Notes: a model not told the origin generated them from the sequence alone. A stretch of DNA of 60,124 bases from a virus (IMGVR_UViG_3300029448_000032:1-60124), one strand, 5' to 3'. Positions 1 through 26,411 are shown, counted from the stretch's first letter. Program-made: numbers and translations.

Positions 1-100
1 CTTATGGAAGAACTAATTACTAAAATTAGAACATCTGATGGTAGAAGAGGCGAGAAAAAAGATGGTGGTTGGAATTATGCTACAAATGTGAAACCACAAC
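1..100. repeat. Terminal direct repeat, copy 1 (circular assembly overlap)
   Basis: 1-100 equals 60025-60124 with one mismatch (position 2); lies inside a reading frame. Confidence 0.95.
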
Positions 101-617: not shown

Positions 618-3600
618 ATGGAAAGAATGTCTTTATCAGAAAGATTAGCTCCTGTAGTTTCTAATACTGATCTAAATGAAGAGTTTAGATTTTTAGATGC
701 AGATACTGTAGAGTCTAAGGTAGACTTTGACGATCAAGGTAGACCATTAAGATTCCGACTTCAAGGAATAGATGCTCCTGAGGTTGCCAAGTATTTTGGT
801 GTAGATAATATTAAAGCTAGTACTTCTGGATCTAATAAAGCTAACTTAGCATTAATGAACTTAGCTAAGAAAGAAGGCTTTACTAACGTTATAAGGTCAG
901 GTAGATTTGATGCATTAGGTCGAGAGATAATTGACTTACAAGACGAAGCTGGTAGAAGTTGGGAAAATACTTTAATAAAAACTGGTGTCTTAGATCCAAC
1001 AAGATACACATCTAATGAAGCAATAAAAGCTAATATAGTAGCTGAAGCTATAGGTACTCATGGACAGGGAGAAGATTGGGACGTAGCTAGGAATGCTATT
1101 GCAGATGCTATATACGATGAAACTAAATACGAGACTATGATAAAGCAACAAGCTATAGACGAAACTGAGTTAGCTTATGGTGGTAATTACTTTATGCCTG
1201 GATCTGTAAAATACAGAAGTTTCGATAGAGATCTACGTAATAAAGCTACTAGTCCTTTTGCTACGGCTTGGGATGTAGGCTTAACAGGCGCTATTGAAGG
1301 TTTGTATGGTGCTGTTGAAATGACTGGCGAAACTACTGGATGGGACTGGGCTAAGAACGTAGGTGAGAATGGTATATATAGAGCTAGAAGAGAGATCGCA
1401 AGAAAACCTGAGATCGTAACTAGCTATAAAGACATAGATGGATTCTTCGGAAGAGATGGATTTCTACAATATGTAGCTAACAACGCAGCCATCTCCTTAC
1501 CTTACATGGCAACTACTATGGCAGGAACATTAGCAGCTCCTTTTACTTATGGTACTTCTTTACTTGCTCCTGTTTCTTTATATTCAGGTACTGTATGGAA
1601 TGATATGGAAGGAGATAATAAGAACGCGCCACTAGCTATTGTAACGGGTGTAGCTCAAACTGCACTAGATAGACTTGGCTTAGGGTTCTTAGCTAAAGGT
1701 ACGTTGTTATCTAAAGAAGGACGACAGACAGCAGTTAATGCTTTAATAAATAAAGCTAGAACAGAAGGAGTTAAGGTAAGTGGTATCACAGTAATACCTC
1801 GTGGTACAGAGTTATCTAAAGAAGCTGCTTCGAATTTGATATTAACATATAGTCGTCAAGAGACAGCTAAGCTAGCTACTGACGCAGCTAAGTTTGCTAA
1901 AGACCAGTTAAGAATGCGGAACGTAGTTAAGTCACAATTAAAGAGACTTGCGGTTGGTGGAACAGGTGAAGGTATAACTGAAGCACTTCAAGAATCTATT
2001 GGATATACTGCAGCTCACCATGCTAATGGATTTAGAGATTGGAATGCTCACGAGTTTAAAGATCGTCTTATTGATGCTACTATTGCAGGTACTTCTCTTG
2101 GTGGTGCCTTCTCCGTACCTGGAGGAGTTTACGACTACGGTGCTTGGACAGATGTAGCTTATAGAACTGGTACTAATACAGGTAAACAGACATCTAAGAT
2201 GGGTAAGCTAGCTGAAAGAGACATAGCTAAGAACGGACAGCAATATAATATTCAAGAAGAAAACGATACAAACAAATTTGAAACTGAGAGACAATCTGGT
2301 GATCCATTCTTTGATAGTAACGAAGATATAAATGACCAAGCAGAAAGACATGAAAAGAAATTAAAACAAAGAGATATGGCTCAAATAATTCGTGACTCAT
2401 TTACAAACTTTCCTAGATTGTATCGTGGAATTATGAGATCTGCATTCGGTAATATGGGATTTGCTGATGAGCTTCAAAATAATTCTACAACAGCTCGTAT
2501 AATGGCTGAAAAGTATGGTGGTAACTTACAAAGATCTGTTTCAGGTGAGTCATACGAAAATAGAAAGCACCATGAGATATCTAAGATACGTCATATACTA
2601 GGAGATGTATCTAATATACTTGCTGGGTTTGGAAGATCAGATAAAAGAAAAGCTCGTATTAAGTTTAGTCAAGAGTTTTATGAAGCTTTTAATAGAGCTC
2701 ATGAAAAAGCTGCAGCTGAAGGAAGAGAAGTTAATTGGGAAACAGATTTAGAAGGACCACTAAGTGAGAATATTCCTGCGTTTATAGCACTTGTAGGTAA
2801 GTTAAATGAAGTAGGAAATAGAATGCATAACATGCAGTCTAAACATAATCCTCAATTAGGAAAGATTAAAGATTATTTAGCTAGACATAGATCTATAAAT
2901 AAAGAAGCTGTTGAAAAGAATAGAGCGGGATTTGAGAATGCTTTATTAAATCTTAAAGATAGTAGAGGTAGACCGTTAGTTACACCAGAGCAAGCTTCAG
3001 AATTAACAGAAGCTATTATAAGGCAAGATGGAGTTAACGATATTTCTGATCTTACAGCAGGTAAAGATGGATTCTCTGTTGTATCTAAAGCTACATTTAA
3101 ACCTCAATCCCATAGGAAAAGAACTTTAAATCTATCTGATAATCCTGAGTTTAACGAATTCTTAGAAATGGATTTATTTTCTAATATATCTAACGCAGCT
3201 AAGTCTGCTGTACGATACACAGTACTAGAAGAGTTTGTTGGTGCTGATAATAAGAAAATTAATAATGATCTTGCTAAAGTTAAAGAAGAATTAATGGGCT
3301 CAGGCTGGAGTGAGGCTGATGCACAAAGCAGAGTAGACAAACTATCTTATGATATGAAAAGGTTTCTTAATGCTGAGTCAGGAAACTACAAGCGTATTCA
3401 AAATCCAATATGGTTATTTGCTCAAAAGAATTTATTATTTGTAACTACTATTACTGGATTACCATTAGCTACACTATCTAATTTTGTTGAACTCGCCTTA
3501 GTTAGTAAGAGTTTAAATGTAAGTCAGATCGTTGGGAAAGATGGTAGTATAGCTAGTATATCTAGAAACTTTGTAAATGAATTAAACAATACTGCTAGAA

Positions 3601-4715
3601 GAGGATTCGGTGCTGCCACAGGTAAAGTGACCCCTCATAGAAGAACATCTGCTGGATACCAGAAAATACAAGAATTAGGTTTCTTAGATTGGGAAGTAGG
3701 TGCAGCTCATACAACAGGCGTTAGTGAAACTGGTCGTATGCACCAACGTGTTTTAGATTTATACTTTAAAACTATTCTATTACAGCAATGGACTAATGCT
3801 ACTCGTGCATCAAGAGCTGCTATCGCAGGAGACTATATAGTAGATAAAATAAATATATTAATTGAAGCACAAATGCATGGAATAGTAGAAGCTGGAACTG
3901 ACTTTAATAGAAAGGCTACTTATACTAATGAAGTTGCAGAAGCTGAAGAAGCATTACGTAATTTAGGTATAGATCCTAGATGGATGGTAGACTATCATAT
4001 GGGATTTCCAGATATGGGTAGGGCTAGTGATCCAAGTTTAAATGTTAGTGATCTTGGTCGACCTAGCAGAGAACCTACTGAGATAGAAACAGAAAAATAT
4101 ACACGAATGATGAATGATGCTACGTTTAGTTTTGTTAATGAGGCTGTCGCTTTGCCTCAATCTGGAAACAGACCTTTGATCTTTCAAGATCCTAGGTTCG
4201 CTTTGTTTACTCAGTTCCAAGGTTTCATAGCTACATTCCAAGCAAACCATTTGCCTAAGATGTGGGCAGAAATGGCAAGACGTGGTACTCCTGCAATGAA
4301 GTATAATGTTTTTGCTACTATGTCTACTATGATTTTATTAGGGTTTGTATCACAACATCTTAAAGACTTATTAAAGTATGGAGAACCAACTCCTTATTTT
4401 AAAGATATGGAATACGTTAGAAGAGGTGTTGCATCCAGTGGATTATTAGGTACATCAGAAAGAGTTTTAGACTTTGTTTTCCCTATGTACCAAGAGAGAT
4501 ACAAAACAAATATTGGTTGGGCATTTGGAACTATATCAGGAGAATCTGCTGCATTAAGTAAAGCTCTTAGAATAGGAGAGTTAGGAGTAGATGTAGCTCA
4601 AGGAGAAAGAGGACTGGGAAGTGCTGCTATGAAGATCTCTCCTTTAGCACAAGCAGCTTATCAAGCACAGAAAAATATACCTCGATGGAATTTTGGAGAT
4701 AACACATGGCAATAA
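618..4715 (+). CDS. Large internal virion (ejection) protein with N-terminal staphylococcal-nuclease-like domain
   Basis: LDADTV, RLQGIDAPE and DALGR motifs in the first ~130 aa; no Cys seen; lies between the SLT protein and the vRNAP. Confidence 0.75.
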   Translation: MERMSLSERLAPVVSNTDLNEEFRFLDADTVESKVDFDDQGRPLRFRLQGIDAPEVAKYFGVDNIKASTSGSNKANLALMNLAKKEGFTNVIRSGRFDALGREIIDLQDEAGRSWENTLIKTGVLDPTRYTSNEAIKANIVAEAIGTHGQGEDWDVARNAIADAIYDETKYETMIKQQAIDETELAYGGNYFMPGSVKYRSFDRDLRNKATSPFATAWDVGLTGAIEGLYGAVEMTGETTGWDWAKNVGENGIYRARREIARKPEIVTSYKDIDGFFGRDGFLQYVANNAAISLPYMATTMAGTLAAPFTYGTSLLAPVSLYSGTVWNDMEGDNKNAPLAIVTGVAQTALDRLGLGFLAKGTLLSKEGRQTAVNALINKARTEGVKVSGITVIPRGTELSKEAASNLILTYSRQETAKLATDAAKFAKDQLRMRNVVKSQLKRLAVGGTGEGITEALQESIGYTAAHHANGFRDWNAHEFKDRLIDATIAGTSLGGAFSVPGGVYDYGAWTDVAYRTGTNTGKQTSKMGKLAERDIAKNGQQYNIQEENDTNKFETERQSGDPFFDSNEDINDQAERHEKKLKQRDMAQIIRDSFTNFPRLYRGIMRSAFGNMGFADELQNNSTTARIMAEKYGGNLQRSVSGESYENRKHHEISKIRHILGDVSNILAGFGRSDKRKARIKFSQEFYEAFNRAHEKAAAEGREVNWETDLEGPLSENIPAFIALVGKLNEVGNRMHNMQSKHNPQLGKIKDYLARHRSINKEAVEKNRAGFENALLNLKDSRGRPLVTPEQASELTEAIIRQDGVNDISDLTAGKDGFSVVSKATFKPQSHRKRTLNLSDNPEFNEFLEMDLFSNISNAAKSAVRYTVLEEFVGADNKKINNDLAKVKEELMGSGWSEADAQSRVDKLSYDMKRFLNAESGNYKRIQNPIWLFAQKNLLFVTTITGLPLATLSNFVELALVSKSLNVSQIVGKDGSIASISRNFVNELNNTARRGFGAATGKVTPHRRTSAGYQKIQELGFLDWEVGAAHTTGVSETGRMHQRVLDLYFKTILLQQWTNATRASRAAIAGDYIVDKINILIEAQMHGIVEAGTDFNRKATYTNEVAEAEEALRNLGIDPRWMVDYHMGFPDMGRASDPSLNVSDLGRPSREPTEIETEKYTRMMNDATFSFVNEAVALPQSGNRPLIFQDPRFALFTQFQGFIATFQANHLPKMWAEMARRGTPAMKYNVFATMSTMILLGFVSQHLKDLLKYGEPTPYFKDMEYVRRGVASSGLLGTSERVLDFVFPMYQERYKTNIGWAFGTISGESAALSKALRIGELGVDVAQGERGLGSAAMKISPLAQAAYQAQKNIPRWNFGDNTWQ

Positions 4716-7700
4716 GAGTAAACCCACAAGGAGCTTTAACAGAAGATACTAGAGCTAAGGTTGCTGAGAATGTAAAGCGCATGACAATGGCTGAAAGGTT
4801 TAAAGCAAAACCTTTACTAAAAACTCCAGTCGATCAGTTGAATGTAACAGGAGATCGTCCGTATCTTACAGCTGTAGATGATTACAAAGTAAATAAGTTT
4901 ACACCATCTGCTAACACAAGTCCTTACGCAAGTACTACAGTAACACGAAGCAGACGTGAGAGACTAGATAAAGAAAGAGAAGATGATATTAACGCAAAGC
5001 GTTATGAAGAAGATTTGCTTGCACAAAAACAGCTTGACCGAGAAGAAGCTCTTTCTGAAAGAGAACCTAAAATTCGAGCTATATGGAATCAAGGAGTCCA
5101 GCAAGATGAGGTAGGAAAAAGATTAACTACAGCAGAAGCAGATCAATTACGTCTTAGTACAGGTGTATCTGAAAGTGTAGTAGGAATAGGAGATGATGCT
5201 ACTGGACATATGATTAGAAGGGCTAATCGCTTTGTTAATCTAGCTCACGATACAAAATTAAACTTTACATCAGATGATTATGCTCGTAATATAAGAGCCG
5301 ATCAATCTACAATTTCTGATGAAACTTGGGCTAGACAATCAGCAGCTGCTAGAAAAACAGGTCAGACACTTACTGCTGCAGGGTTTCAACTTAATGATAT
5401 TATGAAAGACCCAACCGGTAGATTGAGTGAAGCTCAAATAGAAAACATAGCTCAGTTCGCAGCAGGCCCTAATGAAAAGTCAAGACCTAGAATTGGAGGT
5501 ATGTATATTCCTAAGCAAACCCGTGGTGTTAACTTAGGTAATGTGTATGAAGAAACTTCTTTAAGAAGAGGTGTGCAACAAGCTGAAGGTAGTCTTCCAC
5601 TAGTAAGCGATCCTAGAAATGAAGGTCAATATAGAGAAGCTACTTTTTTAGATCAGTATAACAAAGAGATAATATCTAGAACAGGTTCAGATAAAAATGT
5701 TATAGATCCATTAAGTGTTAAAGGTATTATGTTTAATCCTGACGGATTTGATGCTGGAGTATTTGATAGAGAAGGGAACATGGTAGTTGATCCAACAGCT
5801 TTAACTACTATGGCTTTAGCTACTGAGATCTTCCTTAATAAAGCACAGTATCAAAAAGATACTACTCCTATAGAAGGTGATGCAGTTCTAGAGAAAGAGT
5901 CTGTTAAAGATAAAGCCTTAAGAGAAGCACAAGATACTACTTTTTCACCAGAAGGTGGAATCGGAAGAGTTGAAGGTAATGCAGAGTTAGGAAGAGAAAT
6001 CTTTAAATCTTGGAAGCGTGAACAAAACTTAATGAACAATAGACCTAGTGACCAATATAATATAGACGCACTTAGTAACAATGAATTCGTAGCTTTAGGA
6101 ACTCTAGCTAAAGAGATGTATCATATGGCTAACCCACATTTACTAACAAGGATAAGTAATGAGGGAGGTTTTGATGCTGACGCAATAGGAGATCACGTTA
6201 ACTCTTCAGTTGAATTCAGGTTAACCGATCTAGGTAAAAAGGTTTTTCTTGAAACTCAGAAGTCATCTCCAGATGCTTTCAGAAATTATGAAATAAAAGC
6301 TAGACATAGCAAGAAATCTAGAGCTCTTCAAGATACAAGAACAGAGAAGGATGTTTATTTAAAATCAGCAACAACTGTTATTAAACCTGAAGTACATGAA
6401 GCTATAGAAGAAGCTCGCTTTAATATGGGTAATGTAGGTCATGTAATTGACCCGCTTAGACGTAAAATAGTTACGCAGCTTGCGATCACTGCACTGGCTG
6501 AAATGAAGAAACCCGGCGCGATTCCTAAGGTCGGTGACTTTTTTGATGTTGGCCAAGTAAAACTTGATGCCTTTAATGCAGAACTTAACAACAAAAGAAG
6601 AAGTCGTAATTATGTAGAGGGTGAGTATCGTCCTGAATATGAATTAGAGAAGCAGCTTACTAAACTAATAGAAATGCTTAATACTGTAGGAGTAAATAGT
6701 AATAAAGTTAATTACTTAGATTTTGTGTTACAAAGTCTTACTCATAGAATGCATGCAGGTCAAACAAGATTTAATCCACAATTAATTCCTTTGTTAAGGT
6801 ATATTACAGGTGGTGCAGTTCCTACTGCTGTTAATACTGCTGGTACTTCTGATGCTAACCTTATGTTTAAAGAGTTAATGGCTATTCATTTTCTTAAAGA
6901 AGATGCTGACGGTAAAAAGAGTAAATTCGATTTGCCTGAAACTAGAGTAAAGAACTTCGATGCAGAATGGGCAAAACCCAATCATGGTAGATTAGGACCT
7001 TATATCTCAGCTGGTAATGCTATTAGACAAAGCTTACTAAATAATGAGCAAGATGCTAAGTACACTGAAGCATTATCTAATATAAGATTAGAAGAAATAA
7101 AGAGTGATCCTTTAGGACAAGAGCAAAGTCTTAGTGATTTAGCTATTCAAGGAGGATTTGAACCTGTACCAGAATCTACTAGTCCTCTTAGTAAAAAAGC
7201 TCAAGGAATTGTTATACCCCCTGAATTACTTGATGTTCCTGGTTTAAATATGGGAGATGGTTTACTTAATGAAGCTAGTAAGGAAGGTATTGAAGGGCTT
7301 CATTTAGTTGAGGCAGCTCATGAGTTAGCTATGTGGGCTGAAGCTCGGAAGTCTAATGATCCAGCAAAGCAAACATTTAATTCTAATATAGGAGTAGAGT
7401 TTGACGGACTAACACATGGACCTGCTTCTTGGGTTGCAACATTAGGATCTATTGTAGCTGGATATAGAACAGGTATGTTTAGAAAACCTGGTGCTACTCA
7501 AAAATTAGATGAGTTCAATAGACAGAACATGTTAGATGTGTGGCTTGAACACCAGCCAGACGAGTATGTTGAAGCAGATCCTTCTCCTGACCAAGTAGCT
7601 GGAGATTTTAGAAATGCAATGGGCGTTTGGATGCTGTCTGAAGGGGAGAAGTATGCTAATCGTGTTAATCCTAGACATGCTGCAGAGTTATACGAGATAT

Positions 7701-9232
7701 TAGGAGAAGCTATTAAAGATAAGGAGTATTTTCTTAAGAAACCTCCTATGACTTTATCATATGGCCAAATGCTAGAGAATTTAACTGATTCTATAGGACA
7801 AGCAGTTATGGGTTCTTCTAGAATAAGAGAAATCATGAACAATAAAGATTTCAGAGAGTCTATTATTACTAGACAGCTGATAGCGCGGGGAAAAGATCCT
7901 TCTTCTATTGAGAAGTTAAGCCCTAAAGAGCGTAAAGAAATAGTTGGTAATGGTGTTATAGATTTTCTTCATAATATATTAGCAGATGCTATTGACTCTC
8001 AAATTCATCCAGGAATAACTGAAGTAGGCCAACTTATTAGAGCTAACGCTATGGTCTCTATAATGAGCGATGAGCTTATGACCATTGAAAGTGCGTTAGG
8101 TCTTCCAAATTATATAGGAGCTAAAGAAAGTCTTCAACAAACATATCAAGCTCCGCTTACAGGTACAGTACCTGGAAATAAAAGTATCGGAGATATATAC
8201 TTATTTAAGACTCAACCTTCTGGTAGTGCAATAAGAACAATCGAAACTCCAGGTGGGATTAAACAAATAGTAGGTGGATACACTTCAGGAAGAAGTATTC
8301 CAGCTATCATACAAGCTATTGATGGAGCTTGGATGAATAGGATGTTTACAGATTCTTTTAAAGGACCAAATGGATTACAAGATGCTTATATGGTACCTAT
8401 CTTTGATGCTGTTAAAACAGATTTAACAAGTGCTAGAAGAGTTAGAGAACATGCTAATCATAATTGGTGGAATGTTATAAAAGAGTATAATTACTTTGAT
8501 AGTCTTATGCAAGATTGGCAACCAAAAGCAAGTGAAAGGTTTACGAAACATCTTACAGATATCGGTGATACACCTATATCAAGCACTAATGGGTACGGAT
8601 TAACAGACGTAGCTGCATTTAATAGTAAAAAGCCTACAAGAAAGATACTTCAAGCGGGTAATCGCTATAAAGCTTTTCATGATTTCTTTACAGTAACTAG
8701 AGAAGACAGTAAATATTCTCAGGGCAATATGCTTAAAGAAGGAGATTTAAGTTTAGAAAATCTTATATCTGCATTTAAAACTTCAGGATTATTTCCTGCT
8801 CGTAAGAAAGGGCAAACAGTTAAGGCTTATAAAAAGCAAGTAAACGATGCAGCTACAGAACAAGCGAAGATGTTATTTCCTGAGATAGCACAATTTCATA
8901 TAGAGCAAAAACAGATTTTGAGTAATGTTAGGGAAGGAAGTATGACTGGGTTTCAAGGTAGAACTTGGGAAGAATACTATGCATTTTTAAATGAACATTC
9001 TACTAATGAACTCGGTGATAGACTAAGAGAGCTTAGAAGAATATATCAAATGGATCCTACTGGTAATGAGTTAAACTCCATATACCAAACAATAATAGGA
9101 AAATATGGTTTAGATTTAAAAGCTAGAAATGATAGTGTTACTAAGCAATATAGAAAAGCCCATGAAAACATGTTTAAGTTTGCTAAGAAATTGGCTAATG
9201 ATATTAGACTTCTTCAAATAGACATGGGATAA
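4706..9232 (+). CDS. Virion-encapsidated single-subunit RNA polymerase (mini N4-vRNAP-like)
   Basis: THRM..FNPQ, motif A VEFDGLTHG, motif B KKPPMTLSYG, PAIIQAIDG, motif C VPIFDA; no Cys seen; last gene of the ejection cluster. Confidence 0.85.
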   Translation: MAIRVNPQGALTEDTRAKVAENVKRMTMAERFKAKPLLKTPVDQLNVTGDRPYLTAVDDYKVNKFTPSANTSPYASTTVTRSRRERLDKEREDDINAKRYEEDLLAQKQLDREEALSEREPKIRAIWNQGVQQDEVGKRLTTAEADQLRLSTGVSESVVGIGDDATGHMIRRANRFVNLAHDTKLNFTSDDYARNIRADQSTISDETWARQSAAARKTGQTLTAAGFQLNDIMKDPTGRLSEAQIENIAQFAAGPNEKSRPRIGGMYIPKQTRGVNLGNVYEETSLRRGVQQAEGSLPLVSDPRNEGQYREATFLDQYNKEIISRTGSDKNVIDPLSVKGIMFNPDGFDAGVFDREGNMVVDPTALTTMALATEIFLNKAQYQKDTTPIEGDAVLEKESVKDKALREAQDTTFSPEGGIGRVEGNAELGREIFKSWKREQNLMNNRPSDQYNIDALSNNEFVALGTLAKEMYHMANPHLLTRISNEGGFDADAIGDHVNSSVEFRLTDLGKKVFLETQKSSPDAFRNYEIKARHSKKSRALQDTRTEKDVYLKSATTVIKPEVHEAIEEARFNMGNVGHVIDPLRRKIVTQLAITALAEMKKPGAIPKVGDFFDVGQVKLDAFNAELNNKRRSRNYVEGEYRPEYELEKQLTKLIEMLNTVGVNSNKVNYLDFVLQSLTHRMHAGQTRFNPQLIPLLRYITGGAVPTAVNTAGTSDANLMFKELMAIHFLKEDADGKKSKFDLPETRVKNFDAEWAKPNHGRLGPYISAGNAIRQSLLNNEQDAKYTEALSNIRLEEIKSDPLGQEQSLSDLAIQGGFEPVPESTSPLSKKAQGIVIPPELLDVPGLNMGDGLLNEASKEGIEGLHLVEAAHELAMWAEARKSNDPAKQTFNSNIGVEFDGLTHGPASWVATLGSIVAGYRTGMFRKPGATQKLDEFNRQNMLDVWLEHQPDEYVEADPSPDQVAGDFRNAMGVWMLSEGEKYANRVNPRHAAELYEILGEAIKDKEYFLKKPPMTLSYGQMLENLTDSIGQAVMGSSRIREIMNNKDFRESIITRQLIARGKDPSSIEKLSPKERKEIVGNGVIDFLHNILADAIDSQIHPGITEVGQLIRANAMVSIMSDELMTIESALGLPNYIGAKESLQQTYQAPLTGTVPGNKSIGDIYLFKTQPSGSAIRTIETPGGIKQIVGGYTSGRSIPAIIQAIDGAWMNRMFTDSFKGPNGLQDAYMVPIFDAVKTDLTSARRVREHANHNWWNVIKEYNYFDSLMQDWQPKASERFTKHLTDIGDTPISSTNGYGLTDVAAFNSKKPTRKILQAGNRYKAFHDFFTVTREDSKYSQGNMLKEGDLSLENLISAFKTSGLFPARKKGQTVKAYKKQVNDAATEQAKMLFPEIAQFHIEQKQILSNVREGSMTGFQGRTWEEYYAFLNEHSTNELGDRLRELRRIYQMDPTGNELNSIYQTIIGKYGLDLKARNDSVTKQYRKAHENMFKFAKKLANDIRLLQIDMG

Positions 9233-9476: not shown

Positions 9477-11837
9477 TTACGAAAAGAAATAATCGCTATC
9501 AGCGATTTCTTTTACGTTTAGATTTCCTAGCTTGTAGTTATAACTAAACTTTTCAGGTTCCATTAATAACATATCGGCTATATGTTGATAGTAATCGCCA
9601 TGATCGTACATTTTAATGAACACTTCTTTAGTTAAGTCTAATAAGCTAGCTACATCACAACCGTGAGTAGAAAATGAGTCATGTATTGCAGCGAAGTCAC
9701 CGTCCCAATGGTGTATAATTAACGCCATATGAGCTGCATCCATACTGTGAATAAAGTTTGGGCTTATGCCCGAAGCAAAGCCGCCAGGGCTTGCTATCTT
9801 TTTGCCGTATACAAGGCGGTGTTCCTTACCGACATGCTGGATTCTCATATCCGATATCCAGCTTTTCCATTTGATATCTTCCATTACGTAATTTTCATAT
9901 CGTACTGGAAATCCAGATGGAGTAGTCCACTCAATAACAGGCTCATTCAAGTCTGCTATAATGTGGTTTGCTATTGCTTGTAGATAACTCATAGTTTCTA
10001 ACGGACCGGGACAAACTTCATCTATCGCTTTAATTAGATTAAAAGATAGATCATTACAGTCTGACATAGATATATTATACTTACTATGGAATCCTTCAGC
10101 GTAGCAATCAGCGTACATATTTAATGCTATGGCTAAATGACCTGCGCTATAAGCTCTAGTCATAGACCCACGTTTAGAGATACCTTTACGGATATGTTTC
10201 ATAGGCATATCACGAGACTCAAACCACTCAGGCATACGAGCTATTAAAGCTTTAGCCGTTTGTACATAGAAGTCTTTAGGTATTTCTGTTTGAACTAGAC
10301 CTACAAGCTTACCAGCTTCTTTGTCTTTAGATATAGCAGCCAAGTGTTGCCACCCATTATTAGATCCATCAATAGGAATAGGAAGGTTTATATAGTAATC
10401 ATTCTCAGGAGATTGATCCCATAAAGTACACCATGCTTTACAACAAGCAAGAAAGCTAACAGGCTTCTCTGCTTTATCATGGATAGTACGGTTGATCCAA
10501 GTATTTCTGATAAAGTCTTCGTTATTAGAAACCCATTTAACTCTATCATCAATAGTCATCTTATCAACTGAGATGTCTGTCAACCTTTCATTTTCCAAGT
10601 GACTCTTATAATCAGCATCACACCACTCAGGTATGTTATCAATAGTATACGATTGATTATATGTACAGGCTGTATGTACTGCAAAGTAATACAAGCCTTC
10701 ATCAGTCATCGGTTTAGCACTTGCGAATTTAAGTAGACCACGTTCCATGTCTTTACCTTGATAGTTCAAGTAAGACTCTCTGTAATATAGTCTACCACGA
10801 TAATCTGTATCTACATATTGGAAAAAGATTTTATTCTCTAATGCTTCAGCTTTCTGAACAGTCATATTGTAAGCATCAAACTTACTACGGTTCTTTAATA
10901 ATACTAGCTTAGCATTCCAATTAGTAGCAGCGTTATCATATTTCTTTTGAGCTCTGACTAATGGCTTCTTGTCAGGTTTATTACGTAGTTTATTAGTTAA
11001 TCTTCTTAACTCTCCGTAATACCTTTTCTCTAAAGATTTATTACCTAAATCTGGTTTAAATACCACATCATTCCAGTATAAATCTTTTCCTTCCAACTCT
11101 TTGTTGTTACCAAATATACAATAGCGGTAGTTCTTACCGGTCTCATCTGATACTTTAAGAGTTTCAGTTACAAACTTACGTTTGTTTTTCTTAACCGCTT
11201 CTAAGATATCACTATCAATAGTCCAAGCTGTTTGCTGCAATTTGTTTATCGCATCTACAAATGGTTCATCTAATAACTCTTTAAATGATTCGGCTTTATC
11301 GAAACCCCAATGCTTTATTACTGGGTAACCATTCTCTTGGAATAGATTATGAATACGGTTTATCTTCGTAAACGAAGTGTTCTGTATTAACTCGTTTACT
11401 ACGTCACTGGGAAGTGATCCAATTTGTAACCACTTTTCAGAGGTCTCTATCATATATGGAGCTCTACTGAAAGGCTTTTTACCTATAGGATTAGCTTCCC
11501 ATTTTATTTGAGCTTCAGTTGGAGCTCTAAATATTTTTATATATCCACATTCATAGAACGCTTCAAGAACTAGGTCGCCGACTGTTACGTCAGCTCTAAA
11601 CCCTAGCTCTACTCCCTTCTGAAGCAACACATTCTTACCTATAGCAACCGAAGCTGCTGTAAGTTTACATGTTGCTGACTCAGAAGTTGAAGTCTTTGTG
11701 AAGTGGTATTGCAGTATAGTTAATGCGTCATATACTAACCGCTTCGGATCCAGCTTGTGTTCGTTCACCAGCTTTACTGCCCACCTCTGCGGTGTATTTA
11801 TAATTTTCTGTTCTAAATACTCTATTATGTTCTGCAT
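9477..11837 (-). CDS. T7-like single-subunit RNA polymerase (~786 aa)
   Basis: DYRGRLY, PIDGSNNGWQH, KRGSMTRAY, SPNFIHSMDA, AIHDSF, C-terminal YFFS; start placed at MQNII (11837) after AGGAG RBS. Confidence 0.95.
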   Translation of the reverse strand: MQNIIEYLEQKIINTPQRWAVKLVNEHKLDPKRLVYDALTILQYHFTKTSTSESATCKLTAASVAIGKNVLLQKGVELGFRADVTVGDLVLEAFYECGYIKIFRAPTEAQIKWEANPIGKKPFSRAPYMIETSEKWLQIGSLPSDVVNELIQNTSFTKINRIHNLFQENGYPVIKHWGFDKAESFKELLDEPFVDAINKLQQTAWTIDSDILEAVKKNKRKFVTETLKVSDETGKNYRYCIFGNNKELEGKDLYWNDVVFKPDLGNKSLEKRYYGELRRLTNKLRNKPDKKPLVRAQKKYDNAATNWNAKLVLLKNRSKFDAYNMTVQKAEALENKIFFQYVDTDYRGRLYYRESYLNYQGKDMERGLLKFASAKPMTDEGLYYFAVHTACTYNQSYTIDNIPEWCDADYKSHLENERLTDISVDKMTIDDRVKWVSNNEDFIRNTWINRTIHDKAEKPVSFLACCKAWCTLWDQSPENDYYINLPIPIDGSNNGWQHLAAISKDKEAGKLVGLVQTEIPKDFYVQTAKALIARMPEWFESRDMPMKHIRKGISKRGSMTRAYSAGHLAIALNMYADCYAEGFHSKYNISMSDCNDLSFNLIKAIDEVCPGPLETMSYLQAIANHIIADLNEPVIEWTTPSGFPVRYENYVMEDIKWKSWISDMRIQHVGKEHRLVYGKKIASPGGFASGISPNFIHSMDAAHMALIIHHWDGDFAAIHDSFSTHGCDVASLLDLTKEVFIKMYDHGDYYQHIADMLLMEPEKFSYNYKLGNLNVKEIADSDYFFS

Positions 11838-12186
11838 TATTTCTCCTAGTTTTGCGGAACGGATTATGTGTAACGTTAAACAGGTCACACCCATTCCTTA
11901 AGCAACATTTTATTTCATGAGATTCTACTACAGTAGCTTCTTTATCTGTCATCTGTCCACCTTTAATCACAACAACATCTTGTATTTTGTGGACAGACAA
12001 CTTATCAAGCAACCAAATATGGTGGTCATAACCACGGTTAGTTATCTGGTATGCTCTATGTAAAGTACCCTTACCAACGTATACTACGTTATCCGTTTCC
12101 GGATCTTTATGAAAGTAAACACAGTACATATCTTCAGGATACTTTACAACTTCATGGGTATCTTCTCTAATCTCTATCTGACGCAA
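11728..12186 (-). CDS. GIY-YIG-like nuclease
   Basis: YCVYFH...VVYVGKG..RA pattern; 3' end overlaps the RNAP gene. Confidence 0.55.
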   Translation of the reverse strand: MRQIEIREDTHEVVKYPEDMYCVYFHKDPETDNVVYVGKGTLHRAYQITNRGYDHHIWLLDKLSVHKIQDVVVIKGGQMTDKEATVVESHEIKCCLRNGCDLFNVTHNPFRKTRRNNAEHNRVFRTENYKYTAEVGSKAGERTQAGSEAVSI

Positions 12187-17606: not shown

Positions 17607-17633
17607 GTTGAAAAAGCGCGATGAATATCGCGC
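17607..17633 (-). promoter_or_regulatory. Hairpin element (GC stem), candidate vRNAP promoter
   Basis: gttgaaaaa-gcgcg-atgaatat-cgcgc just upstream of polA. Confidence 0.65.
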
Positions 17634-17646
17634 TTTATTAGGGATC

Positions 17647-17844: not shown

Positions 17845-18301
17845 TAGAATGATGTAGTATAATGTGAGTATCTCCTACGTTATCAGCATGGTTAGGTCCA
17901 ACCCATCCCTCTGGTTTAATCATATCAGGTAAACCTAATGGATTAGGTCTTGAAGGTTTCTTTCCAGGTTCTTTACTCATGTTAGCTTTATGAACCCTTG
18001 ACCAAGCTTTATTAGCGTCAACACCTAGAATATCTAACGTACCTATTGCTACCACACATAAATCTATAAGACCATCAACAACTTCTTGTGCGTTCTTATC
18101 TAACACGGCTGCAGCTTTAGTCTCGTTAAGTTCTTCTTCTAAGAATTTAATACGAAAATTTAAGAATTCTCTTAAAGTATTGTAGTCTTCTTCATCTATC
18201 TTACGAGCCATCCACTTATGCACACCAAATTTCTGATGCATTGCATGAATGTCTTCTGCCCACGAAGATCGTTTGCCATAAACTCCAGGATATTTCATCA
18301 C
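17816..18301 (-). CDS. MazG/PRA-PH-like NTP pyrophosphohydrolase (candidate dCTPase)
   Basis: EEELNE...DGLIDL...NMSK; adjacent to the dCMP hydroxymethylase. Confidence 0.8.
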   Translation of the reverse strand: MMKYPGVYGKRSSWAEDIHAMHQKFGVHKWMARKIDEEDYNTLREFLNFRIKFLEEELNETKAAAVLDKNAQEVVDGLIDLCVVAIGTLDILGVDANKAWSRVHKANMSKEPGKKPSRPNPLGLPDMIKPEGWVGPNHADNVGDTHIILHHSNDGGYENYE

Positions 18302-18359
18302 ACACTCTCCTTTATGTCGGTAATGTCGGTTAAGTTAAATAAAATTTTAAAGGTACTAC

Positions 18360-19106
18360 TCATCCAGACCTCATAGGTACTACATAGTCTTTAGGTTTAA
18401 TACATTCTTCTATTAAATGAAAATGTCTAGGATATACATGAAGGTTCTGAACCTGCCACGTAATATGCCCTGCTTCAAGACCGAGATCTATCGCAAGACG
18501 GTTAATTACTTTAACTTGCCAAGCATAATCATTAATGTACCCAAATACCGCATCGTTTGAGCGCATCTGAACTACACCATAGAGCGCTGTTCCTCTTTTA
18601 TAGTATGTTACAGCATTTGTACAGACAAAGTCATTCTTACCATGCTCTATGGCCGTCTGATGCATGTCTGGGTTTGTGTATATCATAGTAGCTCTTCGAG
18701 AATTAGGACGTAGCTTTAATTCTTGGACTACATTATTATATTGGCTGCCATTCTCTTTACTATAGATTAAGTATCCATAGTTAGAGTTAATGTCACCATC
18801 AGTATTAGCGGTTACATCCTTCCATATAGCAGGAACCTTACCGTAAATATCTCCTAAATCATTTACGTTTAGACTTTGAGAATCATACCACTCTAATTCA
18901 GCTTCAATGTACTTAACATTTCTTTCTCCGAATATAGTCGGTTCATCAGCAAGGAAGCTGGCAGCTCTTATCTCGAGCGTACCATCTTCCTGAAAGTCTT
19001 GGTTCTTATACAGTTGAATGAATTCTTTTTTGATTTCACCCGACAGCATTAGCTTCCTTTCTTCTATGTTTAAAATAGTGGTCAACCATTTGTTGGTCAC
19101 ATACAA
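18360..19106 (-). CDS. dCMP hydroxymethylase (T4 gp42-like, ThyA fold)
   Basis: ASFLADEP, ELEWY, INSNYG, SRRA.MIYT, DFVCTN, MRSNDAVFGYINDYAWQ, LHVYPRHF closely follow T4 gp42; true start may be MLSGE (~19049). Confidence 0.88.
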   Translation of the reverse strand: MYVTNKWLTTILNIEERKLMLSGEIKKEFIQLYKNQDFQEDGTLEIRAASFLADEPTIFGERNVKYIEAELEWYDSQSLNVNDLGDIYGKVPAIWKDVTANTDGDINSNYGYLIYSKENGSQYNNVVQELKLRPNSRRATMIYTNPDMHQTAIEHGKNDFVCTNAVTYYKRGTALYGVVQMRSNDAVFGYINDYAWQVKVINRLAIDLGLEAGHITWQVQNLHVYPRHFHLIEECIKPKDYVVPMRSG

Positions 19107-19437
19107 ATGTTTTACCTGAGCCTTGTTCTGTTATTTGATAAGGTCTTTTTCTAGCCTTACTCTTATAACCGGTAAGTTTAAATTGCTTACCATCTATCAT
19201 GGCGGTAACATTAGTATCTAAATCATGGAGTCTAGCCCATACATCTAAGTCTTTCTTTTCTTTAGACCTATTTCCTTTGATTCTAGCTATAACTTTAAAT
19301 GTAACTTCATCTTCATCGTAGCTAGCATTACCTACTTTAATATCTAAATCAGGTAACTCGTCATAAGCTCTCATATTTATAGAGCTTTGTAGTTGATTTC
19401 TAATTTCTTTAACAAGTTGTTTATTAAATGATTGCAT
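19036..19437 (-). CDS. Hypothetical protein
   Basis: ORF with AAGGA RBS. Confidence 0.65.
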   Translation of the reverse strand: MQSFNKQLVKEIRNQLQSSINMRAYDELPDLDIKVGNASYDEDEVTFKVIARIKGNRSKEKKDLDVWARLHDLDTNVTAMIDGKQFKLTGYKSKARKRPYQITEQGSGKTFVCDQQMVDHYFKHRRKEANAVG

Positions 19438-19453
19438 TATAGTATTCCTTTTT

Positions 19454-19921: not shown

Positions 19922-19942
19922 AGCTTTCTCCTTTAATTTTAG

Positions 19943-19969
19943 GTTTAAAAAGCGCGATGAATATCGCGC
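19943..19969 (-). promoter_or_regulatory. Hairpin element (GC stem), candidate vRNAP promoter
   Basis: gtttaaaaa-gcgcg-atgaatat-cgcgc upstream of 19921. Confidence 0.65.
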
Positions 19970-19987
19970 CTTTTATCTAATCATCCA

Positions 19988-20842: not shown

Positions 20843-20868
20843 TGTTATTCCTTCATTTGTTTCTAAGT

Positions 20869-21050: not shown

Positions 21051-21129
21051 TATTTGACCCGTCGGTCAAAACGGTTTATACGAGAAAGCCGTAAGACGTT
21101 TTGCGCCACATATTTTTCTCGTATTCTTT

Positions 21130-21228: not shown

Positions 21229-21230
21229 AC

Positions 21231-23382: not shown

Positions 23383-23409
23383 GTTTAAAAAGCGCGATGA
23401 ATATCGCGC
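23383..23409 (-). promoter_or_regulatory. Hairpin element (GC stem), candidate vRNAP promoter
   Basis: gtttaaaaa-gcgcg-atgaatat-cgcgc upstream of the SSB gene. Confidence 0.65.
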
Positions 23410-23442
23410 CTTTAACATAGGGTAGTAAGGTAGTATAGAGAG

Positions 23443-24426: not shown

Positions 24427-24819
24427 TTATAAGAAAAAGAGCTCATCTCTGGCTTTCATAAGTAGCTCAGGAAAAGCTTTTTTCCAATAGCCTTTTTCTT
24501 GGACATGCGTAAGTTCATATCCTTTAGTTTTCCATAAAGCTTTTAAAGCATAATCATGCTCATTAAAGCTCTTTAAAATAAGCTTATACATTAGAGTTCG
24601 ATTAATATCTTTATTGGCTTTATAGTTTCCAGTATGCTTTACACCATTATCCCATTTCTTATTATAGGTTAGTTCATCGAATGTTCCAGATTTCCAAGTC
24701 TGGTACGCATGCTCAACGGATTTATATTCTAGTCCGTTAGTATCTTTAAATGGTCTAAGAGAAAGATTGCTTAAGATAGCATTCTCTCCGGTTCCATAAT
24801 ATATATTTAAGGTTTTCAT
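24427..24819 (-). CDS. NADAR/YbiA-like protein
   Basis: LSNL..RPF...G.EYKSVEHAYQ..K, M..LI..SF, L..T.G.EL, LMKARDEL. Confidence 0.7.
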   Translation of the reverse strand: MKTLNIYYGTGENAILSNLSLRPFKDTNGLEYKSVEHAYQTWKSGTFDELTYNKKWDNGVKHTGNYKANKDINRTLMYKLILKSFNEHDYALKALWKTKGYELTHVQEKGYWKKAFPELLMKARDELFFL

Positions 24820-24847: not shown

Positions 24848-24875
24848 GTTTTAAAAATTTTATGGATATAAAATT
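24848..24875 (-). promoter_or_regulatory. Hairpin element (AT stem), candidate vRNAP promoter
   Basis: gttttaaaa-atttt-atggatat-aaaat upstream of the NADAR gene. Confidence 0.65.
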
Positions 24876-24910
24876 GGATGTCGGCATACACTACGGTATT
24901 ACTTTGTTTT

Positions 24911-25446: not shown

Positions 25447-25474
25447 GTTTTAAAAATTTTATGAATATAAAATT
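25447..25474 (-). promoter_or_regulatory. Hairpin element (AT stem), candidate vRNAP promoter
   Basis: gttttaaaa-atttt-atgaatat-aaaat. Confidence 0.65.
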
Positions 25475-25631
25475 TGAGGAATGTAAAGGAAGTATATATG
25501 TTGAAGGATAAAGAGGTCCGCTAACCTTCAGGTTGGTGGGCTCGTGGGTGCCGCGAGGTGTCACAATAATCATGCAAATGTTGTACTTAGTAGAGGTATA
25601 GGGAGTGTTACCGCCCTGCCGGACCCCCTTT

Positions 25632-26132: not shown

Positions 26133-26183
26133 AATGTGCTTTCTATTAGTTAATGTGAAATATTTTAAAAAGAGATAAAATAT

Positions 26184-26211
26184 GTTTTAAAAATTTTATG
26201 GATATAAAATT
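26184..26211 (-). promoter_or_regulatory. Hairpin element (AT stem), candidate first vRNAP promoter
   Basis: gttttaaaa-atttt-atggatat-aaaat. Confidence 0.65.
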
Positions 26212-26239
26212 TGTGGTTAAGAAAGAGAATTGATTTAGA

Positions 26240-26395: not shown

Positions 26396-26411
26396 TGTCT
26401 CCTAGTAGAGA
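26396..26411 (+). promoter_or_regulatory. T7-style phage promoter upstream of the terminase
   Basis: TGTCTCCTAGTAGAGA. Confidence 0.65.

What the first reader, a model, noticed from the sequence alone, without database searches (positions are those of the whole stretch)
4706..9232. Compact (1508 aa) virion RNA polymerase with N4-vRNAP-type motifs
Seen: all T7-superfamily catalytic motifs. Motif A (VEFDGLTHG) and motif C (IFDA) resemble N4 vRNAP more than T7 (IHDS). I found no Cys, and the gene ends the ejection cluster. Known: N4 vRNAP is ~3500 aa, Cys-free and injected. Inference: an injected RNAP of under half that size, in a phage with an SU10-type head and T7-like replisome, possibly a distinct lineage.
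Basis: partly seen in the sequence, partly recalled or inferred. Interest (0 to 1): 0.85.

Follow-up and report, generated by a model that had tools for sequence, protein, structure and literature searches.

The report
Compact Cys-free phage RNA polymerase, probably injected
A marine phage encodes, at the end of its genome-ejection genes, a cysteine-free RNA polymerase less than half the size of the only known injected polymerase of this type, which suggests that a large overlooked group of ocean phages bring their own small transcription enzyme into the host.

Summary
ORF 4706-9232 (+) encodes 1508 aa with no Cys and carries VEFDGLTHG (897-905) and IFDA (1232-1235).

No Pfam, PHROG, PDB-sequence or GenBank-phage match exists. 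An AlphaFold model of residues 330-1508 (pLDDT 74) matches only single-subunit RNA polymerases: mitochondrial, T7 and N4 virion RNAP (Foldseek E about 1e-12, VIA Z 10-17).

Profile comparisons align the family collinearly with N4-like vRNAPs (97.3%, E 3e-11) and with T7-like RNAPs (96.2%, E 2.5e-9). Both values exceed N4 versus T7 (93.9%). The motif A, B and C residues are invariant or nearly invariant in 130 homologues.

The family has 295 representatives, mostly 1100-1300 aa, and 126 of 135 long members have no Cys. In all 64 related viral loci that carry the gene, it is the last gene of the structural strand. It follows Cys-free giant proteins and faces a canonical, Cys-containing T7-like RNAP.

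Best reading, about 0.68: a packaged, injected minimal vRNAP transcribes early genes, perhaps from six tip-conserved DNA hairpins, and the T7-like RNAP then takes over. Packaging and activity are inferred, not shown.

I class it as a new variant of a known kind, with interest 0.75.

The parts
4706..9232 (+). Gene for the 1508-aa Cys-free single-subunit RNAP-like protein, the candidate compact virion RNAP
   Evidence: ORF and translation; 0 Cys; fold and profile matches to RNAPs
4706..5692 (+). N-terminal extension, residues 1-329. It is variable in length among homologues, only the first ~10 residues (MAIRVN...) are widely shared, and it was not modelled.
   Evidence: Alignment A1; no Pfam match at E up to 10 apart from a chance-level DUF5364 hit at E 1
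5693..9229 (+). Polymerase body, residues 330-1508. This part was folded. It spans mini-vRNAP residues 122-1063 and T7 RNAP up to its last residue.
   Evidence: AlphaFold2 pLDDT 74.1, pTM 0.70; VIA-align ranges
6734..6781 (+). SLTHRMHAGQTRFNPQ, the counterpart of the T/DxxGR...NPQ element. R681 and F689-Q692 are invariant among close relatives.
   Evidence: It aligns with N4 TRVGRMQMLGKYNPQ and with the T7-like RGR...N.QG element
7394..7420 (+). Motif A, VEFDGLTHG (D900). It fits the N4-type ExDGxxxG pattern.
   Evidence: It aligns with N4 VEADGVTNG (D559 by position). The pattern is quoted from passages of PMC10654107
7733..7765 (+). Motif B, LKKPPMTLSYG (K1011/K1012, Y1019, G1020)
   Evidence: Invariant K, Y and G. 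It aligns with N4 AKNPLTITIYG and with the T7-like KRGSMTRAYS
8297..8335 (+). Pre-motif-C element, IPAIIQAIDGAWM
   Evidence: It aligns with the window's T7-like RNAP ISPNFIHSMDAAHM and with N4 IPFMTIGTGDGMMM
8399..8410 (+). Motif C, IFDA (D1234)
   Evidence: D and A conserved in at least 90% of 130 sequences. It aligns with N4 KIFDG (D951 by position) and the T7-like IHDS
9212..9229 (+). Conserved C-terminus, LQIDMG. In the model it ends where the last residue of T7 RNAP ends.
   Evidence: Q1504 and D1506 invariant among 16 close relatives; model residue 1177 is paired with T7 residue 883
618..4715 (+). Upstream 1365-aa Cys-free giant virion protein (family A4). It always sits directly before the polymerase gene.
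   Evidence: phrog_6958 virion structural protein, E 7.5e-25; 0 Cys; synteny
57139..60124 (+). Cys-free protein with a lytic transglycosylase (SLT) domain. It continues into 1-609 across the overlapping window ends, giving 1164 aa, and is a candidate ejection protein.
   Evidence: PF01464 SLT, E 7.7e-6; window ends overlap; the joined frame is open and has 0 Cys
9477..11894 (-). Canonical T7-like RNAP, 805 aa with 13 Cys, convergent with the target
   Evidence: PF00940 E 3.8e-54; phrog_414 E 1.5e-101; Cys count
26191..26212 (-). Hairpin 1 of six. On the - strand it reads AAATTTTAT-ATCC-ATAAAATTT followed by TTAAAAC. It lies upstream of the first - strand gene and is a candidate promoter element.
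25454..25475 (-). Hairpin 2, with an AT stem and tip AT-ATTC-AT
24855..24876 (-). Hairpin 3, with an AT stem and tip AT-ATCC-AT. It lies upstream of the NADAR-like gene.
23390..23411 (-). Hairpin 4, with a GC stem and tip AT-ATTC-AT
19950..19971 (-). Hairpin 5, with a GC stem and tip AT-ATTC-AT
17614..17635 (-). Hairpin 6, with a GC stem and tip AT-ATTC-AT. It lies 30 nt upstream of the DNA polymerase start codon.
24427..24819 (-). Early 130-aa gene with a weak NADAR match. The same domain is inserted inside the polymerase-like protein of four relatives.
   Evidence: Pfam NADAR E 0.0049, below the gathering score; blastp 53-60% identity to segments of the L061, L076, L012 and P0152 proteins

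Best explanation
The gene encodes an active single-subunit, T7/N4-type DNA-dependent RNA polymerase. The enzyme is made late and packaged in the capsid with the two Cys-free giant proteins encoded just upstream. It is then ejected into the host with the DNA. In effect it is a natural 'mini-vRNAP' that lacks the roughly 1000-aa N-terminal and 1400-aa C-terminal domains of N4 gp50.

Once inside the cell it transcribes the - strand early and replication block (26.2 kb down to 9.5 kb). It probably starts at the six hairpin elements whose tips are conserved. The last gene of that block is the canonical T7-like RNAP, which then transcribes the + strand structural block. That block ends with the vRNAP gene itself.

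Shown: the fold, the intact and conserved catalytic motifs, the lack of Cys, and the conserved gene position. Inferred: catalytic activity, packaging and ejection, hairpin promoters, and the relay to the T7-like enzyme.
For: Fold. The model of residues 330-1508 has pLDDT 74.1 and pTM 0.70.
- All 44 Foldseek PDB rows listed are mitochondrial, T7 or N4 RNAPs, with E from 1.1e-12 to 1.3e-9.
- All 50 VIA-align rows are the same three kinds, with Z 16.7-10.1. N4 mini-vRNAP 3c3l gives Z 15.8 with 689 residues aligned, and T7 1s76 gives Z 15.5 with 520 aligned.
- The top BFVD hits are N4-like vRNAP fragments and T7-like RNAPs.

Motifs.
- The family profile against a 7-sequence N4-like vRNAP profile gives Prob 97.3%, E 2.7e-11.
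- Against an 8-sequence T7-like profile it gives Prob 96.2%, E 2.5e-9, over 581 collinear columns that run through R..NPQ, A, B, pre-C and C.
- The N4 versus T7 benchmark gives 93.9%, E 1.6e-7.
- The catalytic D, K, Y and G residues are invariant in 130 sequences.

Ejection signature.
- The target has 0 Cys, as do the SLT protein, the 1365-aa protein and ORF 55573-57120. The replication enzymes have 1.3-1.9% Cys.
- Of 135 family members of at least 1000 aa, 126 have 0 Cys and 9 have 1.
- N4 gp50 has 0 Cys in 3500 aa.

Context.
- In 20 of 20 loci and 44 of 46 loci, the gene ends the structural strand and faces a T7-like RNAP with 7-14 Cys.
- The A4 giant protein lies directly upstream in 15 of 15 and 32 of 32 loci that reach far enough upstream.

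Hairpins.
- There are six hairpins with one shared tip, against 0.08 expected. All lie 25-60 nt upstream of - strand gene starts.
- Relatives keep a covarying GC hairpin upstream of the DNA polymerase gene, mostly without a T-run.
- In the close relative G001, the DNA polymerase is 99.5% identical but the polymerase-like gene only 39%. Its hairpin tips are CC-ATAAA-GG instead of AT-ATYC-AT.

Domain insertion. An early-gene domain (NADAR-like) is inserted in four family members, which would fit a protein that is delivered early.
Against: - There is no direct evidence of packaging, ejection or RNA synthesis.
- N4 needs the N- and C-terminal domains of gp50 for injection and encapsidation (stated in PMC3821669, passages read). 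This protein lacks them, and the upstream 1365-aa protein shows no detectable similarity to either.
- The three GC-rich hairpins of the window are followed by T-runs and also look like intrinsic terminators.
- The covariation of hairpin tip with polymerase allele rests on one pair of phages and two hairpins in the relative.
- Residue-level superposition of the Asp residues on a solved active site could not be done, because the tools return no coordinates or residue pairs.
- The model is of medium confidence and has 158 residues under pLDDT 50.
- Metatranscriptome contigs gave no transcript starts.
Confidence: 0.68

Rival explanations
1. It is an active RNAP that is not packaged. It would be a second intracellular polymerase made late, for example for a late gene class or for priming replication.
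For: The fold and motifs are the same as above. N4 also uses more than one phage polymerase (PMC3821669, passages read). Nothing here shows packaging.
Against: It is the last gene of the structural strand and sits directly after Cys-free giant virion proteins. Of 135 long members, 126 have no Cys, whereas the intracellular T7-like RNAPs of the same loci have 7-14. An enzyme made last has little left to transcribe.
Confidence: 0.1
2. It is an ejected protein whose polymerase fold serves mainly as a DNA-translocating or ejectosome component that pulls the genome in. It would not be a promoter-specific early transcriptase, and host RNAP would make the early RNAs.
For: It belongs to the ejection cluster and has no Cys. 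It evolves much faster than its neighbours, at 20-41% identity against 38-99% for the T7-like RNAP, as host-contact proteins often do. Hardies et al. describe ejection proteins that host cargo domains (PMC4819975, abstract and passages read).
Against: The nucleotide-addition residues of motifs A, B and C are invariant or nearly so across 130 members. That argues for catalysis and not only for binding. Sigma-70-like sites in the early region are at chance level: 58 found against a mean of 57.9.
Confidence: 0.12
3. It is a structural or ejection protein with a decayed, inactive polymerase fold, or a polymerase of another specificity such as a DNA polymerase or primase.
For: No Pfam, PHROG or PDB-sequence match exists. 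Family A polymerases share the palm and fingers fold.
Against: The catalytic residues are conserved. All 44 Foldseek and all 50 VIA rows listed are RNAPs and none is a DNA polymerase. Motif A is DGxTxG, as in N4 and in the window's own RNAP. The phage already has a family A DNA polymerase and a primase-helicase.
Confidence: 0.05

Closest known systems
Coliphage N4 gp50 virion RNA polymerase (Schitoviridae), in particular its 1106-aa polymerase domain, 'mini-vRNAP'
   Same: The fold matches (3c3l Z 15.8, 689 residues aligned). There is a collinear profile match at 97.3%. Motif A fits ExDGxxxG, motif C is IFD, and the D-to-K spacing is 112 residues against 111. Neither protein has any Cys. Both genes lie at the end of the ejection-protein genes and face the replication genes.
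   Different: The protein is 1508 aa and its family mostly 1100-1300 aa. N4 references are 2842-3820 aa (PMC10654107, passages read). It has no N4-type N- or C-terminal domains. No BLAST or HMMER-level similarity exists. The genome has a T7-like replisome and a full-length T7-like RNAP, and is not a schitovirus by these genes.
T7-like phage RNAPs (PF00940) and mitochondrial RNAPs
   Same: The fold matches, with Z 15.5-16.7. A 581-column collinear profile alignment covers all motifs. The model's C-terminus ends with the C-terminus of T7 RNAP.
   Different: PF00940 does not score it. It has no Cys, whereas T7-like RNAPs in these phages have 7-15. It has about 330 extra N-terminal and about 200 extra C-terminal residues. 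It is encoded among virion genes, and a true T7-like RNAP is encoded next to it.
Split vRNAP of Alteromonas phages AltAD45-P1 to P4 (1404 + 2481 aa)
   Same: It is a precedent for a vRNAP that is not one 3500-aa chain (PMC3821669, passages read).
   Different: The two AltAD45 parts together still equal gp50 and are BLAST-similar to it. The polymerase part has two Cys and its authors doubted that it is injected. Here the polymerase stands alone, has no Cys, and is not BLAST-similar to gp50.
Roseobacter phage CRP-7 gp33 (1235 aa, hypothetical), the nearest cultured phage by T7-like RNAP (32% identity)
   Same: The layout is the same: DNA polymerase, exonuclease, primase and RNAP facing three giant proteins, gp35, gp34 and gp33, all with 0 Cys. 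YGK, IQGGD and IHDA line up with motifs B, pre-C and C.
   Different: The similarity is not significant (hhalign Prob 0.5%, E 0.12). There is no blastp or HMM hit, and no DGxxxG motif A was found. The CRP-7 paper calls it hypothetical and mentions only ORF30 as an RNAP (PMC6918029, passages read).

Membership tests
Single-subunit (T7/N4/mitochondrial type) DNA-dependent RNA polymerases, structural superfamily | Right-hand polymerase fold with the N-terminal domain typical of these RNAPs | tested here: met
   Foldseek PDB: all 44 listed rows are such RNAPs, E 1e-12 to 1e-9, prob 1.00. VIA-align: Z 16.7-10.1, 511-728 residues aligned. BFVD gives the same kinds.
Single-subunit (T7/N4/mitochondrial type) DNA-dependent RNA polymerases, structural superfamily | Motif A with the catalytic Asp (DGxxxG) | tested here: met
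   D900, G901 and G905 are invariant in 130 sequences. The motif aligns with motif A of N4 and of the T7-like RNAP.
Single-subunit (T7/N4/mitochondrial type) DNA-dependent RNA polymerases, structural superfamily | Motif B (K...MT..YG) | tested here: met
   K1011, Y1019 and G1020 are invariant; M1015 and T1016 are conserved in at least 90%. The motif aligns with N4 K670/Y678 by position and with the T7-like K..MT.AY.
Single-subunit (T7/N4/mitochondrial type) DNA-dependent RNA polymerases, structural superfamily | Motif C with the second catalytic Asp | tested here: met
   D1234 and A1235 are conserved in at least 90% of 130 sequences. The motif aligns with N4 IFDG and the T7-like IHDS.
Single-subunit (T7/N4/mitochondrial type) DNA-dependent RNA polymerases, structural superfamily | T/DxxGR element followed by NPQ | tested here: inconclusive
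   R681 and FNPQ are present and aligned. In the window's subclade the Gly is His (THR), while the wider family has GR. The T/D position could not be fixed.
Single-subunit (T7/N4/mitochondrial type) DNA-dependent RNA polymerases, structural superfamily | Template-dependent RNA synthesis | not testable with these tools
   This needs an enzyme assay.
Pfam PF00940 RNA_pol (operational HMM family) | Score above the gathering threshold | tested here: not met
   No Pfam family at E up to 1. In one nearby ESM Atlas cluster of about 1216-aa proteins, 88% of members carry PF00940; this is a lead only.
N4-like virion RNA polymerase (Schitoviridae gp50) | Giant chain of about 2800-3800 aa with an N-terminal domain, an RNAP domain and a C-terminal domain | tested here: not met
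   The protein is 1508 aa and family members listed are mostly 1100-1300 aa. The polymerase body alone accounts for residues 330-1508.
N4-like virion RNA polymerase (Schitoviridae gp50) | ExDGxxxG motif, used as a filter in PMC10654107 | tested here: met
   VEFDGLTHG. The motif is quoted from passages of PMC10654107.
N4-like virion RNA polymerase (Schitoviridae gp50) | No cysteines | tested here: met
   0 Cys in 1508 residues. 126 of 135 long members have 0 and 9 have 1. N4 gp50 has 0.
N4-like virion RNA polymerase (Schitoviridae gp50) | Sequence similarity detectable by BLAST or HMMER to known vRNAPs | tested here: not met
   tblastn against 50,697 phage records found nothing with three family members. 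The family profile against PDB sequences found nothing. Only profile-profile comparison detects the relationship (97.3%).
N4-like virion RNA polymerase (Schitoviridae gp50) | Packaged in the virion and ejected into the host | not testable with these tools
   Inferred from Cys content and gene position only.
N4-like virion RNA polymerase (Schitoviridae gp50) | Hairpin promoters on single-stranded template upstream of early genes (feature recalled from the N4 literature, not read here) | tested here: inconclusive
   Six tip-conserved hairpins lie upstream of - strand genes. The tip differs in a relative that has a different polymerase allele. Three of the six also resemble terminators. No transcript starts are available.

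The most novel reading that the evidence does not exclude
A large, diverse clade of marine podoviruses may be fully independent of host RNA polymerase through a relay of two single-subunit polymerases. The clade comprises 295 protein clusters at 50% identity and includes relatives of the cultured roseophage CRP-7. An injected enzyme of about 1100-1500 aa would read DNA-hairpin promoters on the incoming genome and transcribe the early and replication genes, including a T7-like RNAP. That second enzyme would then express the virion genes.

The injected enzyme would be a third deep lineage of single-subunit RNAPs. It would show that about 1100 residues suffice for packaging, ejection and transcription, and that N4's 3500-aa gp50 is a fusion of such a polymerase with ejection-protein domains. 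Its rapid allele turnover together with changes in hairpin tip, and the insertion of an early NADAR-like domain in some members, would make it a swappable specificity module and a delivery vehicle for early effectors.
Probability: 0.35. Interest if true: 0.88.

Novelty: new variant of a known kind. Interest (0 to 1): 0.75.

Why it matters
Injected T7-type RNA polymerases are so far known only as the 2800-3800-aa proteins of N4-like phages. The main metagenomic survey of them discarded every hit under 2500 aa (PMC10654107, passages read).

A stand-alone enzyme of 1100-1500 aa would matter in four ways:
- It would extend the 'bring your own polymerase' strategy to a separate and abundant group of ocean phages.
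- It would give a natural minimal system for studying how a polymerase passes through a phage tail.
- It would bear on how gp50 arose and on the deep history of single-subunit RNAPs.
- It would offer a new family of small, Cys-free polymerases, possibly specific for hairpin promoters, for in vitro transcription.

CRP-7 is cultured and has the same gene layout, so the idea can be tested at the bench.

Tried and rejected
**Searches with the whole protein that found nothing**
- Pfam at E up to 1, PHROGs and PDB sequences by phmmer at E up to 10.
- tblastn against 50,697 phage records with P0001, P0060 and P0020.
- Profile A3 against PDB sequences gave only chance hits, E 0.66 and 3.8.
- The A1 HMM against the window's own proteins and CRP-7 gp30 and gp33-36 found only itself.

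**Weak single-sequence comparisons**
- hhalign against single sequences was weak: N4 Prob 9% and the window's T7-like RNAP 1%.
- It became significant only once both sides were profiles.

**The neighbouring giant protein and the ends of the target**
- I asked whether the 1365-aa neighbour is the missing N- or C-terminal domain of gp50. hhalign gave Prob 1.0% and 0.25% and a PDB profile search found nothing. This leaves the question open and does not exclude it.
- Pfam on the N-terminus of that protein, and on the N- and C-terminal parts of the target, found nothing.
- The idea that the RLKGIDAPE stretch of that protein is nuclease-like is recalled only and has no support from any call.

**Promoters**
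- A k-mer search of 12 + strand intergenic gaps found no shared late-promoter motif.
- The sigma-70-like scan was at chance level.

**RNA evidence**
- Three seawater metatranscriptome runs hold small shares of the early region as contigs.
- Laid on the window, they give patchy low cover and no starts. Contigs cannot show starts.

**CRP-7 gp33**
- Its motifs line up with the family, but the score is not significant.
I did not try.

- In one search I mistyped the pattern, one base short in the loop, and it found nothing. I replaced it by fetching the rest of that contig and scanning it.

**Not done**
- The SU10-type head comparison.
- Residue-level superposition of the model on a solved active site, because the tools give no coordinates.
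- An RNAP phylogeny, because identity to N4 and T7 is only about 10-14%.
- Supplementary files of the papers were not opened. Those of PMC10654107 may list the short vRNAP-HMM hits that were discarded, and these could include this family.

Full report
**What is there.** The window holds one ORF at 4706-9232 (+) of 1508 aa. It has no cysteine.

The window is a whole phage genome whose ends overlap: positions 3-100 equal 60027-60124. The + strand block runs from large terminase (26598) through portal, scaffold, major head protein and fibres. It continues with a 1418-aa virion protein and a 1164-aa protein with an SLT domain, which crosses the window junction. Next come a 1365-aa virion protein (phrog_6958) and finally the target.

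The - strand block runs from about 26.1 kb through small early genes to a T7-type replisome of DNA polymerase, exonuclease and primase-helicase. It ends at 9477-11894 with a canonical T7-like RNA polymerase (PF00940, E 3.8e-54) that converges on the target.

**Sequence searches fail and structure does not.** Pfam, PHROGs, PDB sequences and tblastn against 50,697 GenBank phage records give nothing. The large protein collections hold relatives: 15 by word search, and 295 representatives at E up to 1e-3 (189 at up to 1e-30) by a profile search of 1.84 billion proteins. Most of these are 1100-1300 aa.

An AlphaFold2 model of residues 330-1508, built on 19 sequences, reached pLDDT 74.1 and pTM 0.70.
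- Foldseek against the PDB listed 44 rows. All were single-subunit RNAPs: yeast and human mitochondrial, T7, N4 mini-vRNAP and full N4 gp50. E values ran from 1.1e-12 to 1.3e-9.
- VIA-align listed 50 rows of the same three kinds, with Z 16.7-10.1. N4 mini-vRNAP gave the longest alignments (689-728 residues, 13-14% identity, Z 15.2-15.8). T7 gave Z 15.5 over 520 residues at rmsd 4.4. These Z values are tied.
- The model's last residues align with the last residue of T7 RNAP.
- In BFVD the best hits are fragments of N4-like vRNAPs and then T7-like RNAPs, none above 12% identity.

**Motifs.** Comparisons against single sequences were weak but already placed VEFDGLTHGP on N4 VEADGVTNGP and KKPPMTLSYG on N4 AKNPLTITIYG. 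They also placed the IPAIIQAIDGAWM stretch on ISPNFIHSMDAAHM of the window's own T7-like enzyme.

With profiles on both sides the results became significant. The profiles were 130 family members, 7 N4-like vRNAP polymerase domains fetched, and 8 T7-like RNAPs from the window, the loci.
- Family versus N4-like: Prob 97.3%, E 2.7e-11.
- Family versus T7-like: Prob 96.2%, E 2.5e-9, over 581 collinear columns.
- N4-like versus T7-like, as a benchmark: Prob 93.9%, E 1.6e-7.

With a relaxed alignment threshold the N4 alignment also runs collinearly through R..NPQ, A, B, pre-C and C. By position, D900, K1012, Y1019 and D1234 correspond to N4 mini-vRNAP residues 559, 670, 678 and 951. That these are the catalytic residues of N4 is recalled from the N4 literature and was not read here.

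In the 130-sequence alignment D900, G901, G905, K1011, Y1019 and G1020 are invariant, and D1234 and A1235 are conserved in at least 90% of rows.
- VE.DG.T.GP and IFD are shared with N4.
- The phage's own T7-like enzyme has PIDGSNNGWQH and IHDS.
- The D-to-K spacing is 112 residues, against 111 in N4.

The family is thus a deep lineage of single-subunit RNAPs, about as far from N4 and from T7 as those two are from each other.

**Why I read it as injected.** None of this is direct evidence.
- Cysteine. The target, the SLT protein, the 1365-aa protein and ORF 55573-57120 all have 0 Cys, while the replication enzymes have 1.3-1.9%. Of 135 family members of at least 1000 aa, 126 have none and 9 have one. 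N4 gp50 has none in 3500 residues. T7-like RNAPs of the same phages have 7-14.
- Position. In 20 of 20 related IMG/VR loci, and in 44 of 46 loci found with a distant subgroup, the gene ends the structural strand and faces the T7-like RNAP. The other two loci are plain T7-like RNAPs hit at E 4e-4. The 1365-aa family lies directly upstream in all 15 and all 32 loci that extend that far. The remaining 5 and 12 loci start in, or within 300 nt of, the gene.
- Precedent. This is the position of gp50 in N4, after the ejection proteins and facing the replication genes. Papers read in part describe gp50 as being expelled with two further ejection proteins (PMC13434306, abstract). They also describe podovirus ejection proteins as hosts for cargo domains, including the N4 polymerase (PMC4819975, abstract and passages).
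- Domain insertion. A 130-aa early gene of the window (24427-24819, a weak NADAR match at E 0.0049, below Pfam's cut-off) occurs as a domain inserted inside the polymerase-like protein of L061, L076, L012 and P0152 at 53-60% identity. This would make sense for a protein that arrives with the DNA.

**Possible promoters.** Six hairpins share the core AT-G(A/G)AT-AT on the + strand, at 17614, 19950, 23390, 24855, 25454 and 26191. Mononucleotide shuffles gave a mean of 0.08 and a maximum of 1 in 100 trials. Read on the - strand, each is a stem, then AT-ATYC-AT, then the returning stem, followed by TTTTTAAA(A)C. Each lies 25-60 nt upstream of a - strand gene start.

The first hairpin stands before the first substantial gene of that strand. 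Only a doubtful 60-aa ORF lies further upstream.

Three hairpins have GC stems followed by T-runs, so they could equally be terminators.

Relatives keep a GC hairpin with compensatory stem changes upstream of the DNA polymerase gene, mostly without a T-run.

In contig G001 the DNA polymerase is 99.5% and the T7-like RNAP 98.6% identical to the window's, but the polymerase-like protein only 39%. Its two hairpins have the tip CC-ATAAA-GG and the same downstream TTTAAAC. A tip that changes with the polymerase allele is what a cognate hairpin promoter predicts. However, this is one pair of phages. N4's use of hairpin promoters is recalled and was not read here.

No shared late-promoter motif was found. 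Sigma-70-like sites are at chance level. Metatranscriptome contigs gave no starts.

**Comparison with what is known, and novelty.** N4-like vRNAPs are 2842-3820 aa. The 2023 survey of 'hidden' N4-like viruses removed all vRNAP-HMM hits under 2500 aa and used ExDGxxxG as a filter, a pattern the target fits (PMC10654107, passages read). AltAD45 phages have a vRNAP split into 1404 and 2481 aa that is still BLAST-similar to gp50 (PMC3821669, passages).

The nearest cultured phage by T7-like RNAP is roseophage CRP-7, at 32% identity. It has the same layout, with three Cys-free giant proteins. Its paper mentions only ORF30 as an RNAP (PMC6918029, passages). CRP-7 gp33 shows YGK, IQGGD and IHDA in the right order, but without statistical support.

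Six literature searches found no description of a compact stand-alone virion RNAP.

I class this as a new variant of a known kind: an N4-type injected polymerase in minimal, unfused form, in a different phage group and paired with a T7-like RNAP.

**Limits.** Activity, packaging and promoter use are all inferred. The model is of medium confidence. No residue-level superposition on a solved active site was possible. The upstream 1365-aa protein shows no detectable similarity to gp50's N- or C-terminal domains, so how a polymerase without those domains would be packaged and ejected is open.

Noticed in passing
window 24427-24819 (-); L061 9356-13456, L076 9779-13705, L012 5415-10214, P0152: A 130-aa early gene with a weak NADAR match (E 0.0049, below Pfam's cut-off) recurs at 53-60% identity as a domain inserted in the polymerase-like protein of four relatives. 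In two of them it lies between the fingers region and pre-motif C, and in the other two near the C-terminus.
   Followed up: partly
window 17614-17635, 19950-19971, 23390-23411, 24855-24876, 25454-25475, 26191-26212: There are six hairpins with one shared tip and one shared downstream TTTTTAAA(A)C, all upstream of - strand genes. The close relative G001 has a different tip (CC-ATAAA-GG) along with a different polymerase allele. They may be promoters, terminators or both.
   Followed up: partly
L002 versus window: There is a sharp mosaic boundary. The T7-like RNAP is 98.6%, the DNA polymerase 99.5% and the upstream giant protein 84% identical, but the polymerase-like gene only 39%. Across all 64 loci with the family gene, this gene diverges about twice as fast as its neighbours.
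   Followed up: partly
window 1-100 and 60027-60124; gene 57139-60124 plus 1-609: The window ends overlap by 98 identical bases, so the record is a circularly closed or terminally redundant genome of about 60,024 bp. The SLT-domain gene spans the junction as one 1164-aa Cys-free ORF.
   Followed up: yes
window 26092-26405: In two of three seawater metatranscriptome runs, the summed contig depth in this bin is 328 and 474, against 0-6 elsewhere. The bin holds hairpin 1 and purine-rich repeats (AGAGAGAGATAGTGAGG). It could be an abundant short RNA or low-complexity matches from other organisms.
   Followed up: no
window 618-1000 (N-terminus of the 1365-aa protein): A conserved stretch with RLKGIDAPE and invariant D27, D29, R47 and E55 recalls staphylococcal-nuclease-like domains. 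That resemblance is recalled only. Pfam gives no hit even at E 10.
   Followed up: partly
L021 (CRP-7) 17859-21566 (-), gp33: The cultured roseophage CRP-7 has a 1235-aa Cys-free hypothetical protein in the same position. Its YGK (774), IQGGD (945) and IHDA (977) fall in the order and spacing of motifs B, pre-C and C. It may be a still more divergent member.
   Followed up: partly
L044 12962-15485, L045 12961-15484, L018 1780-4129: In these three relatives the T7-like RNAP gene is in two ORFs. In L044 and L045 a gap of about 330 nt separates them. This could be an intron or intein-like insert, a frameshift or an assembly error.
   Followed up: no
L077 8302-8781, L078 1741-2238: Ordinary T7-like RNAPs were picked up by tblastn with residues 731-924 of a family member (P0060) at E 4e-4 to 5e-4 and 25-30% identity. 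This is a direct, if weak, sequence link across the motif B to C region.
   Followed up: no
window 40136-40756: The 418-aa tail-fibre-like gene contains at least eight copies of a 21/63-nt Ala/Thr/Ser-rich repeat.
   Followed up: no
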